A stretch of 63,531 bases of DNA, filler included, from Octopus bimaculoides (Eukaryota), in NCBI RefSeq assembly GCF_001194135.2. It is 6 parts of 4 records of this genome, joined end to end, with 100 filler letters (N's around TTAATTAATTAA, not from the genome) between each part and the next. Parts side by side here need not be neighbours in the genome. Positions count along the whole stretch, not along the records: positions 1 to 31,066 come from NC_068982.1; positions 31,167 to 36,085 come from NC_069006.1; positions 36,186 to 53,036 come from NC_068983.1; positions 53,137 to 57,087 come from NC_068984.1; 2 more parts are not named here. The stretch is one strand, 5' to 3'. The position numbers were made by a program, and so were the translations under genes. Shown here piece after piece: positions 7,501-56,635 of the stretch. Below the pieces are notes generated by a model. The model searched no databases. It was not told where the DNA came from and saw nothing but the letters and a program-made list of their open reading frames with translations. How positions within the stretch are numbered: the stretch's first letter is position 1; each line of letters begins with the position of its first letter.

Positions 7501-10500
7501 TTTCAACATAGACAATCAGTAAAATATAATAGAGATTAATATAAAGGAGAAAATAATTATGTATTATTGAAGAAAGTTAAGCCTGCTCAGTGTTCAGCTT
7601 CTTCCAGACCTGTTTCTCTATTAGTATTTGTTTTTGTCATCCAAGTTAATGGATCATTTAGTGATTCACTAATGTGTATACACAAAATTTCTAGCAATGT
7701 AGGCATTTTTTAACACCCTAGTCACATTTAGTGACAATTATAATTCTCCTTTTTGGTGAAACATTGCAACCCGCTGTTTATATTAATTTTGTGTATACAC
7801 ATTAGCAAATTGCTAATTCATTCATTAATTTGGATGACGAAAACATAAATACTAATAGAGAAACAGGTCCAGAAGGAGCCAAACACCAAGTGGGTTTAAC
7901 TGATGAAGCAACAGAAATTGCTGAAACTAACATCAGTCTTAAGAATTCTCAGTATTTTTCAGGCAATTATGGTCCCTGTTGATGTATAAGTTTTCTTTCA
8001 TGTACATTAACTACAGCAGTAGAGCATTTTAGCTCCTATTTCTAGCAAGGTAGATGTTTTTTAACACCCTAGTCACATTTAATGACAATTATAATTCTCC
8101 CTTTTGGTGAAACATTGCAACCTGCTGTTTATATTAATTGTGTGTGTGTATGATGATATATATGTATATATATATACACACACACACACATGTATATNNN
8201 NNNNNNNATATATATATATATATATATATATATATATACACATATATATATATACACACACACACACACACACACATATAATATACACAAATGCAGTACT
8301 TCCAGAAGTTAGTTTCATCATGATGGGCAGGTTTTCAATGTGAACCTCATATTGCCAATGAAATCTCTACATTTCCATGAACAAACTTCATTAGAAAATC
8401 ACTCAGTATAGGTTGCAGACATGTATTTAGTTAGTATTTAGTTAATGGAATTTAGTCAAATAATTCATACGAGTTCTAGAGCTGTATTGGTTTGATAGTG
8501 ATTGGATTTGAAATCATGTGTTTGGATTATAATGTCTACCACGCTGTAATTATTTTAATCATCATCAGCATTTAACTGTCTACTTTTCCAGGCTTGCATG
8601 GGTCAAATGGAGTTTACTGAAGCAGACTTTCTATGGCCAGATACCAAATCTCACCTGTTTCTAAGCAAGATAATATTTCCCCCATGGCTAGACTTGTTTT
8701 TGCAGAATATTGGAAACGAATGACACTGCTTGTACAACAACGACACTCATTTACAACAATCTTGTGATATCAAGACAAAACACACACTCGCATGCTCACA
8801 ATGAGCTTTTTTCAGATTCCACCTACCAAGTCCACTCACAAGGCTTTGGTCAGCCCAGAGCAATAGAAGACACTTACCCAAGGTGCCACATAGTGGACTG
8901 AACCATAAACCATGTGGTTGAGGAGCAAACTTCTTAACCACACAGCCACACCTGTACATGATTAAAAAGCATACAATGGCATATTTATTTGCACAAGGTG
9001 CCGTCCCACTGAGTGGCACTTTTGGGTTGACTTATGCCTTGTGAGTGAATTTGGTAGACATCCATTTTCGTGTGTGAGCATACACATGAGAATGTGGATA
9101 ATCCATGCTTAGCAAAATGGTAATGACATTGTCATTCCATGACCACATTGTGACTGGTCAATCTGTGTTTACAAACACTTCCAGAAATATGAAAATCCCT
9201 TACTTGAAAAGCAAGCAAAGATTAGTACAGGAAGAGCATTCAGCTGTAAAATCCCACCTCAAATAACCCATGCTTTCATGGAAAAATAGAAGTTAACTTT
9301 ATAACTATTTCGTAATAATAATAAAGAAAACACAAATAGAAACGTCTGTCTTCAAATATCTACAAGGAGTATGACAATGCATTTATTTTTGTCATTAGTA
9401 CTTAGAAAATGAAAATAGACAAAGTTACAACATTAAAGTTGACTTACAGTTCCATGTCCAAAGAATTCACAATAACAGCAGTCACAATATTTTCCTTCCT
9501 TTTGATTCGATGTGGAGGTTGAGGAACTTTGCTCTGAACAGCTATCATCGACACTGTCATCATTATCTTCTTGGTGGACAACACAATCTGGATCTGTACA
9601 CATTGTTGACGTACCCACACTAACATTATTCAACGTGGTTGGCATGGGAACAGCATTTACACACAAGCCAGAATCAACTGTACCAGGATTCTGGTAAGCA
9701 TGCCCATTGCTGTTACGTAAATTATTGTTGTTGTTATTATTATGCGTACATGAATACTGACCAAGCATTGCATTGGTATAATTGCGAGACTGATGAGATG
9801 AATCTTCTTTGACTATATTGGCATTTCTTGGACTTATCTGAAGTAGAAGTAATTTAGACATTAATAATTTGGGACAAAAAGTTTGTGGAAAAAGCAAATA
9901 AAAATGACAATGAAATTAAAATATCTCACCTCAGCACCTCCTGTGTTAGCCCCATACTTCTTGCAGTGTTGGTTGTGAACCTTTTCATTATGGGATGAAC
10001 TGTTTCCACCAAGGGTAGCTGGACGATTACACGAATGGCTTTTAATGGAACCATTCTGATTGTTGCACTTGTGTACCTTGCTACACACTAATGTTGTTGC
10101 AGATTGTGATGTAGATGAAGGAGTGGCAGAAGAGAAGGGGAGGGATGGTTGCTGTGAGGATTCTTGTGGTTGGAGAAGCTCAGTTTGCTGCACCGTAACT
10201 TGCACTTCAATTGAAGATGATTCAAGGCTAGATGAGAGATGATTAGATGGCAATGTTTCGATCACAGCTCCTTGGGAAGGCAACCCTGATTCTGATGATG
10301 ATGATGATGGTGATGACGATGATGAACTTCTGACAAGCGATGACGTACATGGCAGTAACTCACCATTTATGCTCTCATCATATTTATGAGTATCAAGTAA
10401 TAACCTAGGGTACAACTGAGTGTTCTCCCAATCCCCTTGGTAAGTGTGTTCATGATCAGTTAATGCAGTAGCATTAGAACGCACCAATTGTACTGGTAAC

Positions 10501-13500
10501 TTTGACTGAGGTGAGATAATAAATTTAGGTTGTTGTCGAAGTTGTACAACTTCAACATCCCATTGAGGTTGCAATATAGCACGTGCATGAGACGACGGTC
10601 CTCCATTAACAATGCTTGTGTTACCATTTGCATTATTATTATTAATATTGCTATTGTTAGTATTATTGTTGCTGCTGCTGCTGCTACTACTGCAACCAGT
10701 ATTGCCACCACCATTCACAGCAGCAGCGGCAGCAGCAGCAGCAGCAGTTCCATGAAGGCCATGCAAGCCAGAAGGTCCATGAATATGTGGATAAAGATGA
10801 AGATGTGCTGGTCTTGGGAGAATAGGAACATGCTGAGGTAGTGAAGTTGAAACAGTGTTCCCTCTTTGGCGTAAACAAAAGTGACACTGACACTGGTTGT
10901 CATCAGATTTAATCTGAAGAAGAGAAAATAAACACTTCTGTCAGACATTTACAAAGACATTAATTTTTTAAATGCAGTTTCAGGAATAAAAAAAATGTAA
11001 AGAAGAGGAAAGACAAATAGAAAACAAATACCTTAAGAGATAAATCAGACCTTCTGATAAACATTAAAAACACTGCATAGTTCCAATTTACTTGGACCAT
11101 ATAAAAGTGTCAAGTGAACTTTTAAGGCAAGAAATTAGATATTGCTTGTCCTTGATGTATAAATGTCGCTAAGGAACTGTTACAAGAAGTTACTAAGCCA
11201 TAGTAAAATTGGAACCAGAACTGTATCTCACCAAACAATTTATCAATTCGAGAGAATAAATTACTTAGGAACCCATCTTCATAGAAAACAACAGTTAAAT
11301 TATCATCATCATCGTCGTCGTCGTCGTCGTTTAACGTCCGCTTTCCATGCTAGCATGGGTTGGACGATTTGACTGAGGACTGGTGGAACCTGAAGGCTAC
11401 ACCAGGCTCCAATCTGATTTGGCAGAGTTTCTACAGCTGGATGCCCTTCCTAACGCCAACCACTCCGAGAGTGTTAACATATTTAATGCAGTAAATATTG
11501 AAAGGATAATTAGAAATTATTATACAGTGTATGATGAAATCTGAAGTACCTTAAAGTAAACTGTCATTTAAGTAAATGTTCAGCATGTGTAATGTAATGA
11601 CTGATAAAAACAAAAATGAAATGCCTTTCATCGAATCCTCTATTAGGATTGATTGAGCCTAAACAACAATTGCTTCAACAGTCCTCCATCCATACTGAGA
11701 TATAAAACAGTATAAAAAGTTTTAATCAAAAATTCAAAAGAAGACAAAGAATAACTCCACTGTGCGTGTGTGTGTGTGTGTGTGTGCAGGTGGCACATAA
11801 AATACACCATTTTGAGCGTGGCCGTTGCCAGTACCGCCTGACTGGCCTTCGTGCGGGTGACACGTAAAAGCACTCACTACACTCTCTGAGTGGTTGGCGT
11901 TAGGAAGGGCATCCAGCTGTAGAAACTCTGCCAAATTAGATTGGAGCCTGGTATTGCCATCCGGTTTCACCAGTCCTCAGTCAAATCGTCCAACCCATGC
12001 TAGCATGGAAAGCGGACGTTAAACGATGATGATGATGATGATCAATATGAAATAAATTTAAGGGTTGGGTAATATTTTTACAAGCAATATCGACTGGTGA
12101 TCATATATGAAAAGCTCATCAAGCTGTTTATACTCACAAGTTTTTCTGAGTTTGTAGTAATATAACGATGATAGTCACAGTTTTCAGCAGTTCCATCCAA
12201 AGCAGAACCATTTTGTTTTTTATCATCTTCCCATGAAAATATGGAAATATCTAATATTCCATTTGTCATCTGTGCAATTGTATTAGCATTATCTAAACCC
12301 AAATTAGTTCCTTTGTGGTGTTCTCCATCTTCATCATCTATTACTTCATCTTCATCAATATCAGACTGACTATCATTATTTTCAGCATCACCATTTCTGA
12401 AAAAAAATATTAAAAACAATAGTTATTTAAACTATTTCTAAAATGTAGAAAATTAACTTGTATTTGAAATCTAGTGAATTATCTATTAAAATGAGCTTTA
12501 AAAAATGGTGTTTAATTGTCTAATTTAGAAAAAAGAAATGCAACCAGTGCATGTTAAAAACAAACCAGCTAGTCTGATAAATAATCTTTACTAAGAAACA
12601 CCTTTTATTAACTATAATAGAAGTGAAATAACTAAAAAGCCTTAAATATTATGGCTATTGAATCTATGTCTTCAAAAATAACTTCAAAAATCATAATCAT
12701 CAAAGGATAAGCTTATAACTTACTGAAGAGGCTGAGAACATTCATCTATGCTAAGTGGTAACTGATCTAAATCAATCACAGGACTTGAGGAACAACTACT
12801 AGACGTTGTACTGGATATAGAGGCAGCACTAACATCTGCCACACAATAGTTAGAATCATGCAGAAAACCAAGATGCTGATGAGGGACTGCAGATTCACAT
12901 TTATCACTTGGTAGCTGACAGCAGATATTTACATGATCTGAAGAATTTTCATGACATAAGCAGCTAAAAAAAAATGGAACAGAAAAACAGACAGGATAAG
13001 ATAACTGTTTCCAAATATTTACATAACTATCAGAACAGTAATTAGCTCCAACACACATTTCTAACTAATTAACCTTCTTGAACACTCAGGGAATAACTTC
13101 TAAATGGCTAAGCAATCAAAGTATTATTACAATTAATACAAAACTTTCCTAAAAACTTGTTTGTACAAAATGATGGAGAGAAAAAAAAAATCAATAAACT
13201 TGGTGATGTGAATGAAAGTTCTAAAATGGAAGCAACTTCAACAAATCATGCATTGTAGACCTCATCATCTGACATACTGGCACGGATTGAAAGGTTCAAT
13301 AGGTACAGACAAGTCAAAGGGCTGTGTTCAAGTTCAATGTCTACTTTGGCATGGTCTCTACATGGCTGCCTTTTTCATAGCAACAAAATTAGTGAGGTCA
13401 CCAAGTAACTCAGACAAAACCTCTTGACAGAATGCAAGTGCAATATTGAGGAAGGTGATTTTGTACTAGGCATTGAAAGTTTGATAGGACAGAAACAGGT

Positions 13501-56500: not shown

Positions 56501-56635
56501 AAATCTGTGAAGAGGCCTAGTGAATCATGCATGTACCCCTATTACATCATTTTCATCTACTAATTACTCCGGCGTAGAGGAGCTATAGAGATTGAATGGG
56601 GCATGCCAACGCTAGGCCGAAACAGCTGTAAGTTT
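56501..56635 (+). ncRNA. Type I hammerhead motif with a long stem-II insertion; core C3 replaced by G
   Basis: gUGAAGA-GGCCUAG..(~90 nt)..CUAGGCC-GAAAC(AGCU)GUA-AGUUU. Perfect 7-bp stem II and palindromic loop III. Confidence 0.6.

What the first reader, a model, noticed from the sequence alone, without database searches (positions are those of the whole stretch)
7895..56635. Four different minimal hammerhead ribozyme motifs in one 63-kb octopus-like window
Seen: CUGANGA-stemII-GAAA-GUH cores at 7895-7943 (+), 41973-42016 (-), 51001-51035 (+) and 56501-56635 (+). Each has a different stem II and different flanks, and three sit in direct or inverted repeats. Known: Penelope-like elements and non-LTR retrozymes carry minimal type I hammerheads, often cleaving as dimers via a palindromic stem III. 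Inference: several ribozyme-bearing retroelement families populate this genome at high density and may be uncatalogued. No Penelope RT or GIY-YIG ORF was seen in the window, so they look non-autonomous.
Basis: partly seen in the sequence, partly recalled or inferred. Interest (0 to 1): 0.75.

Follow-up and report, generated by a model that had tools for sequence, protein, structure and literature searches.

The report
Decayed Penelope hammerheads, two unusual variants
The four motifs are real but decayed pieces of four common repeat families, two of them the ends of Penelope-type jumping genes and two likely small parasites of such genes; this is a known kind of element, although two families carry odd hammerhead forms (a changed core letter, a 105-letter arm) whose ability to cut RNA is untested.

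Summary
All four sites are hammerhead-derived and beat shuffles, but the window is a pack: they lie on three chromosomes. Only C is a 'minimal' type, B's triplet is AUA, and D's copy has lost C3. Each belongs to its own multi-copy family. A and B are ORF-less 355- and 410-bp permuted units with inverted 5' pieces and two preferred 3' ends, like non-LTR retrozymes. C and D are not non-autonomous families. C is the 3' stump of a Neptune-type Penelope-like element and D of a Hydra-clade one; longer copies carry the GIY-YIG ORF 2-3 kb upstream. Two variants stand out. The C family has C at core position 4 (1,368 versus 274 pattern matches), so the window's canonical U is probably decay. D has a 105-nt stem II. 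All four window copies are predicted weak or dead; no cleavage was shown. Penelope hammerheads, including one from octopus, are in print. This scan has already noted octopus retrozymes, a U-to-C core and long stem II arms on other DNA.

The parts
7575..7689 (-). Family A: inverted 5' piece abutting the forward copy
7687..8145 (+). Family A: about 1.3 copies of a 355-bp ORF-less unit, ending at (TG)n/(TA)n
7895..7943 (+). Hammerhead A: core 7900-7906, stem II 7907-7922, C17 at 7938; the family's 12-nt helix III palindrome carries two changes here, and the core is predicted to mispair with it
41841..42180 (-). Family B: downstream copy of a 410-bp ORF-less unit
41970..42014 (-). Hammerhead B: core from 42010, stem II 42003-41988, triplet AUA (A17 at 41974)
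42140..42458 (-). Family B: upstream tandem copy; a 21-nt deletion removes its stem II
50930..51135 (+). Family C: 205-bp 3' stump of a Neptune-type Penelope-like element, ending at (TA)n
51001..51035 (+). Hammerhead C, minimal type: core 51005-51011, extra A, stem II 51013-51023, C17 at 51031; U4 in this copy, C4 in the family
52976..53036 (-). 3' end of a second family C copy, cut by the pack joint
56246..56822 (+). Family D: 3' stump of a Hydra-clade Penelope-like element, ending at (TA)n
56501..56635 (+). Hammerhead D: core 56507-56513 with G in place of C3, 105-nt stem II rod 56514-56618, 8-nt palindromic helix III 56622-56629, A17 at 56630

Best explanation
The four sites are decayed hammerhead motifs in four separate multi-copy repeat families, two of which (C, D) are 5'-truncated ends of Penelope-like elements with their own enzyme and two of which (A, B) are protein-free units likely copied by such an enzyme. 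Shown: the motifs, the families, the upstream ORFs of C and D, the permuted tandem layout of A and B. Inferred: a Penelope RT/GIY-YIG protein nicks (TA)n-rich DNA and reverse-transcribes from fixed start points near the RNA 3' end, mostly stopping early, which leaves stumps that keep the hammerhead; A and B are copied from tandem or circular unit RNA. In the source elements the hammerheads would cut slowly, through dimers formed by the palindromic helix III or with protein help, to trim precursor RNA; cutting is probably not needed for each insertion, which would explain why family C spread with a weakened core. The window copies are predicted weak or dead.
For: Families: first-look candidates 877 (A), 2,069 (B), 5,071 (C), 1,164 (D), not copy numbers; 279 exact 28-mers of C; 358 30-mers of D with up to one mismatch. 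A: period 355, 17 of 25 loci longer than one unit, 18 of 25 with an abutting inverted 5' piece; B: period 410, 8 of 25 and 12 of 25; both with clustered 3' ends. Majority units fold far better than shuffles as circles (z -11.0 and -3.5), the window copies do not (z -1.9, -0.05). C: L257 holds a GIY-YIG ORF end (Pfam PF01541, 24.6 bits, cut-off 22.6), about 2.4 kb of CA-rich UTR with a gap, then hammerhead C; 7 of 35 long copies carry a same-sense endonuclease piece 71-89% identical to it; L308 shows the CX4CxxC linker. D: 6 of 20 long copies carry a same-sense endonuclease; L331 and L334 also show hammerhead D 2.7 and 2.0 kb downstream; L328 has hammerhead D and the tail before an ATG and a broken RT-endonuclease ORF with RWR, DKT and CxCX5C motifs, the Hydra features of PMC8557442 section 11. 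D has two fixed 3' ends. C3G abolishes cleavage and catalytic mutants do not affect insertion in vitro for the anole element (PMC11167929 passages).
Against: No cleavage was shown. In three raw RNA runs of one study, reads of C and D relatives lay in both mate orientations about equally, with no pile-up of ends and no joints at the hammerhead; family A's hammerhead region had depth 0-5. These libraries were not made to keep ends or small circles. No intact ORF was found for C or D; most links cross assembly gaps, and 28 of 35 and 14 of 20 long copies showed no such endonuclease piece. No RT tree was built. No helper was identified for A or B, and only 25 top-ranked loci of each with 1.5-kb flanks were examined. 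Covariation is thin: one clear both-sided change in C's stem II, one in D's rod, and the A and B alignments show mostly CpG decay.
Confidence: 0.85

Rival explanations
1. In lineages C and D the hammerhead fold is kept as a structural signal (protein binding or positioning of reverse transcription) and no longer cuts.
For: C4 core in 1,368 pattern matches against 274 with U4, across several stem II subfamilies; stem II pair is A-U in 40 and G-C in 15 of 56 copies while stem I has U-U at its second pair in 42 of 56; U4C considerably lowers activity in vitro (PMC3088659 passage); catalytic mutants do not block insertion in vitro.
Against: The rest of the core is kept in C, and D's family core is canonical; U4C still supports viroid infectivity; the anole hammerhead cuts when its protein is present.
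Confidence: 0.25
2. All four are non-autonomous ribozyme-bearing elements.
For: No Penelope ORF in the window (tblastn with four related proteins gave no window hit); A and B are ORF-less tandem units.
Against: Same-sense GIY-YIG ORF ends upstream of C and D copies.
Confidence: 0.07
3. A and B are solo pseudo-LTRs of autonomous Penelope-like elements not yet found, not self-contained retrozymes.
For: Same insertion footprint as Penelope elements (inverted 5' pieces, two 3' ends); only 25 loci each were examined.
Against: Where copies run past the unit start they continue into the unit's own end, not into a UTR or ORF; majority units are strongly self-paired.
Confidence: 0.2
4. The motifs are chance matches in AT-rich DNA.
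For: No Rfam hammerhead hit; window copies A-C fold no better than shuffles.
Against: Shuffle control; reversed-pattern controls 0, 0, 0, 0 and 96 against 279, 1,368, 274, 358 and 8,629; family majorities have better cores, stems and perfect palindromes than the window copies in A, B and D.
Confidence: 0.01

Closest known systems
Minimal type I hammerheads in pseudo-LTRs of metazoan Penelope-like elements (Cervera and De la Pena 2014, PMC4209133; parts 1-2 of 4 of the text read, supplements not seen)
   Same: C has the extra nucleotide after A9, G10.1-C11.1, no true helix III beyond a palindrome, many solo truncated copies and few with the ORF.
   Different: The family core has C4 (the text read names only U3-A8 as a core change); stem II is 4 bp rather than 7-8; the 3' UTR is 1.6-2.9 kb and CA-rich.
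Hydra-clade Penelope-like elements and their hammerheads, including Hydra-1_Obim (Craig et al. 2021, PMC8557442; passages, section 11, File S1 rows, File S2 table and alignment passages read)
   Same: [quoted passage not shown]
   Different: Stem II encloses 105 nt, against loops of 3-10 nt in the Hydra rows of File S2 (longest loop in that table 34 nt, in a spike-moss element); the element is about 5-6 kb with a 2-3 kb 3' UTR, against generally under 3 kb; its hammerhead differs from that of Hydra-1_Obim.
Metazoan non-LTR retrozymes (Cervera and de la Pena 2020, PMC7229834, passages and section 14; Li et al. 2026, 10.64898/2026.07.22.740005, part 1 of 5)
   Same: A and B: ORF-less, low-GC (37% and 31%), 355 and 410 bp units with a type I hammerhead, tandem and permuted copies, self-paired unit RNA; mussel units are 350-390 bp.
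   Different: Mostly 1-1.5 units with inverted 5' pieces rather than long arrays; circular RNA and cleavage not shown.
U4C natural hammerhead variant of a viroid (as cited in Perreault et al. 2011, PMC3088659, passages)
   Same: Same core change; lowers activity in vitro but is tolerated in vivo.
   Different: Here it is the majority state of a retrotransposon lineage with over a thousand genomic copies.

Membership tests
Type I hammerhead ribozyme | CUGANGA and GAAA boxes, NUH triplet | tested here: met
   Window copies A, B, C; family majorities of A, B, D. Intact core in 15 of 29 A and 17 of 27 B copies.
Type I hammerhead ribozyme | Canonical core in the window copy of D and in the majority of family C | tested here: not met
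   D copy has G3; family C has C4 in 93 of the first 100 listed exact matches.
Type I hammerhead ribozyme | Helices I-III around the core, helix I open | tested here: met
   A, B, D pair counts; C has helix II and a palindrome but a weak helix I.
Type I hammerhead ribozyme | Self-cleavage | not testable with these tools
   No end pile-ups in ordinary RNA-seq, which is not a test of cleavage.
Neptune-type Penelope-like element (family C) | C-terminal GIY-YIG endonuclease upstream of the hammerhead-bearing end, same sense | tested here: met
Neptune-type Penelope-like element (family C) | CX2-5CxxC linker and CCHH motif | tested here: met
   L308 and L257 translations; the linker does not separate Neptune from Nematis.
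Neptune-type Penelope-like element (family C) | RT falls in the Neptune group | not tested
   No tree; RT pieces seen in L292 (inverted) and L043 (a related lineage joined to a C end).
Hydra-clade Penelope-like element (family D) | RWK motif, DKT for DKG, CxCX5C linker, C-terminal GIY-YIG without CCHH, CxxC near the conserved E and N | tested here: met
   L328 translation read against section 11; RWR in place of RWK; Pfam GIY-YIG 20.4 bits, under the 22.6 cut-off; Atlas features point to GIY-YIG clusters.
Hydra-clade Penelope-like element (family D) | (TA)n insertion, pseudo-LTR, tail | tested here: met
Hydra-clade Penelope-like element (family D) | Generally short (under 3 kb) | tested here: not met
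   2.6-kb ORF plus 2-3 kb 3' UTR; a tendency in the paper, not a strict criterion.
Hydra-clade Penelope-like element (family D) | RT phylogeny | not tested
   No tree built.
Non-LTR retrozyme (families A, B) | ORF-less 170-400 nt low-GC unit with a type I hammerhead | tested here: met
   355 and 410 bp (B just over the range), no long ORF in the sense frames
Non-LTR retrozyme (families A, B) | Tandem repeats with a hammerhead in each unit | tested here: inconclusive
   Partial tandems are common (17 of 25, 8 of 25), two-hammerhead tandems few (such as L057, L062); the window's second B copy lacks stem II.
Non-LTR retrozyme (families A, B) | Abundant small circular RNA | not testable with these tools
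Naiad-clade element (considered for D) | N-terminal endonuclease, C-terminal RT | tested here: not met
   L328 has RT first, endonuclease last.

The most novel reading that the evidence does not exclude
Two octopus Penelope lineages are natural experiments on what the hammerhead does for these elements: a Neptune-type lineage spread to more than a thousand copies with a C4 core and almost no helix I while keeping helix II by compensatory change, and a Hydra lineage keeps a 105-nt rod in helix II. If the C4 form does not cut and the folds bind the element's protein, these hammerheads have become structural signals for reverse transcription rather than ribozymes, and standard descriptors miss whole classes of them.
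Probability: 0.25. Interest if true: 0.6.

Novelty: new variant of a known kind. Interest (0 to 1): 0.33.

Why it matters
The overall picture is ordinary: hammerheads in Penelope ends and retrozymes are known across animals. What remains useful is that the function of Penelope hammerheads is still open, and family C (C4 core) and family D (105-nt helix II) give two ready pairs for cleavage and binding tests. It is also a caution for scans: the 'canonical' core at C is probably a mutation away from its family, and absence of an ORF near a stump says nothing when the 3' UTR is 2-3 kb long.

Tried and rejected
Rfam: no hammerhead family hit. Sequencing runs: no RNA holder listed for D. Pfam PF26215 is not in the local library, so that genome search was not possible. 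An RT remnant upstream of D copy L011 first suggested a Naiad or direct link; it occurs in that one genomic place only, is separated by an inversion, and found no family or homologue; the tblastn used the wrong frame and was redone; the remnant did serve as the probe that found L328. The RT joined to a C end in L043 belongs to a related Neptune-type lineage: none of its 29 closest other loci had a family C end within 1.5 kb, several had other termini, so it was not counted as the link. D's upstream 2.2 kb looked non-coding until longer flanks were fetched. The D endonuclease found no homologue at E<=0.001 in the word-based search. A possible splice donor at D's cleavage site: no joints in raw reads. 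The host gene around A was not identified by Pfam or the Atlas. Earlier-finding look-ups by sequence for C and D were blank. PMC5850863 (Terminons) is not held. Not in print, as far as searched: C4 cores or 100-nt helix II in Penelope elements; the supplements of PMC4209133 and of the bioRxiv preprint, the Terminon paper, Repbase and Dfam were not seen and could hold either.
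Full report
1. The window. It is a pack of six stretches with 59,778 called bases. Site A lies on G000 contig C2, B and C on C3, D on C4. The four motifs therefore do not form one locus.

2. The motifs. A, B and C have a full CUGANGA box; D reads GUGAAGA. B's triplet is AUA; D's stem II encloses 105 nt. A strict descriptor finds 3 sites against 0.03 in 150 shuffles; with position 3 free it finds 5 against 0.16. I wrote the descriptor after seeing the sites. One narrow pattern has 8,629 genome matches against 96 reversed, one per 270 kb, mostly from a fifth family. 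Four motifs in 60 kb is above that figure (0.22 expected), but the pattern covers only part of the families and the window was picked from many. Rfam's models do not report these motifs.

3. Families A and B. Top-ranked genomic copies are 80-86% identical to the window copies. In 25 loci each, the unit has period 355 (A) and 410 (B); 17 and 8 of 25 run longer than one unit and wrap into the unit's own end; 18 and 12 of 25 have an abutting inverted 5' piece; 3' ends cluster (A near +200 and +250, with a smaller group near +180; B near +165 and +275 from C3). The family majorities have perfect palindromic helix III (12 and 10 nt), 5-bp helix II and a helix I that continues past an internal loop or bulge, so they are not 'minimal'. 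As circles the majority units fold at z -11.0 and -3.5 against 40 shuffles, the window copies at -1.9 and -0.05. An A subfamily lengthens the palindrome by two bases and keeps it; otherwise pair variation is mostly CpG decay. In the window, A's palindrome is broken and the core is predicted to pair with it; B's tandem partner has lost stem II, so it has no dimer partner in cis. This matches non-LTR retrozymes (PMC7229834, passages and section 14) with the insertion footprint described for Penelope elements (PMC8557442 passages). The helper enzyme is inferred, not found.

4. Family C. Close copies are 95-98% identical, share a 3' end at (TA)n and are 5'-truncated. The family core is CCGACGA: 93 of the first 100 of 279 exact matches have C4, and a wider pattern gives 1,368 with C4 against 274 with U4; part of the 274 are other, canonical families. 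Position 4 lies in a CpG, so the window's U is most simply a decay product (inference). Stem II is kept by a compensatory change (A-U 40, G-C 15, G-U 1 of 56 copies; these 56 come partly from pattern-selected loci), while helix I has U-U at its second pair in 42 of 56. U4C is known from a viroid, where it lowers activity in vitro but allows infectivity (PMC3088659 passage). Walking upstream: 1 of 10 loci (L257) has a GIY-YIG ORF end, about 2.4 kb of CA-rich UTR whose gap is flanked by the same sequence, and hammerhead C. Of the 40 hits to a UTR probe I fetched 35 (three were already held, two were short contigs); 7 of 35 have a same-sense endonuclease piece 71-89% identical to L257's, three more have weaker Penelope hits, 25 have none. 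Hammerhead and endonuclease are both visible in L257, L292 and L321. The linker and CCHH motifs are of the Neptune type. A related RT has 6,377 first-look candidates in the genome, and its database relatives carry RT domains.

5. Family D. Close copies are 89-94% identical and have the canonical core; the window's G3 is private. C3G abolishes cleavage in the anole element (PMC11167929 passages), so this copy is predicted dead. In 58 copies the long stem II forms five stacked helices with 53 or more copies paired at each position; 18 of 28 variable columns are unpaired; one pair steps U-A (45), U-G (7), C-G (2); one subfamily has a perfect 6-bp helix I. About a third of these copies were selected by an exact match to the 3' strand, which inflates pairing there. 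The window copy's fold has z -2.1. There are two 3' ends, one at (TA)n and one with a tail. I then fetched 20 of the 40 hits (12 chosen for long upstream homology, 8 not held before): 6 of 20 have a same-sense endonuclease, L331 and L334 also the downstream hammerhead, and L328 a pseudo-LTR with hammerhead D and tail, an ATG and a broken 2.6-kb ORF with the Hydra motifs.

6. RNA. Three raw cDNA runs of one study and one contig set were laid on D and on a locus holding A and C. D drew 356, 173 and 169 reads, nearly all under 95% identical, so from other copies or a related species; C drew depth of several hundred; A's hammerhead almost none. Both mate orientations were about equal, no end pile-up and no raw-read joint at a hammerhead was listed. 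This shows transcription through relatives of C and D, probably as parts of other transcripts, and neither supports nor excludes cleavage.

7. Mechanism. Shown: motifs, families, layouts, ORF links. From the literature: minimal Penelope hammerheads cut weakly and as dimers (PMC4209133); the anole element starts reverse transcription at two internal sites that explain the tail, its hammerhead cuts only with protein, and catalytic mutants still insert. Inferred: the same applies here; the stumps are products of early termination; A and B borrow the enzyme. Confidence 0.85 for origin, lower (about 0.6) that intact family versions cut.

8. Novelty. The kind is in print, also for octopus (Hydra-1_Obim; Penelope-like families active in O. 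vulgaris, PMC13282606 passages; 235 Rfam hammerheads in giant squid, PMC6962438 passage). My searches showed no C4 core or 100-nt helix II in a Penelope element; unseen supplements, the Terminon paper and Repbase or Dfam could hold them. This scan has 247 notes with these words and has noted retrozymes, a U-to-C core and long stem II arms on other octopus-like DNA; those are unchecked notes, not support. Verdict: real, explained, a known kind with two variants worth a bench test; interest 0.33.

Noticed in passing
window 3615-4763, 9433-9915, 9861-10940, 20435-20815 (all minus strand): Exon-like open frames of a large low-complexity host gene on the minus strand; the cysteine motif near 9450 recalls FAM193 (from memory; Pfam and Atlas gave nothing). 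Site A lies between these frames on the opposite strand, so it would not cut that pre-mRNA.
   Followed up: partly
window 20622 (minus strand): A fifth loose candidate with U in position 3, an AT-rich 80-nt stem II and no helix I; probably chance.
   Followed up: no
window 151, 11373, 11980, 15013-15191: Several copies of a very common interspersed repeat that contains a CUGAGGA box without a matching GAAA stem; a 66-bp tandem at 15013-15191 may belong to it.
   Followed up: no
window 54744-55118 (minus strand): Remnant of a mariner/Tc1-type transposase frame (weak Pfam HTH_Tnp_Tc3_2).
   Followed up: partly
window 41377-41438, 41540-41670, 42469-42599, 42939-43000: The family B tandem sits inside another repeat with 62-nt inverted ends and a 131-nt direct repeat, MITE-like.
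   Followed up: no
G000, pattern: One further hammerhead family with a longer stem II dominates the 8,629 matches, often as head-to-head pairs 200-500 bp apart.
   Followed up: no
L250, L308 and neighbours: A related Neptune-type lineage ends in a hammerhead-like motif with U in place of A6, a second core variant in this group.
   Followed up: no
L044 about 830 bp upstream of its family C copy; L103-L129: A younger sister subfamily of C (G-C in stem II) with near-identical copies, probably the most recently active.
   Followed up: partly
loose ends at 56590 and 56632: RNA reads hold a sister of family D that shares the 3' strand of the rod and helix III but has a different inner loop and downstream flank.
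   Followed up: no
L328 3546-4424: The Hydra ORF of family D has two long asparagine-rich insertions between RT thumb and endonuclease.
   Followed up: no
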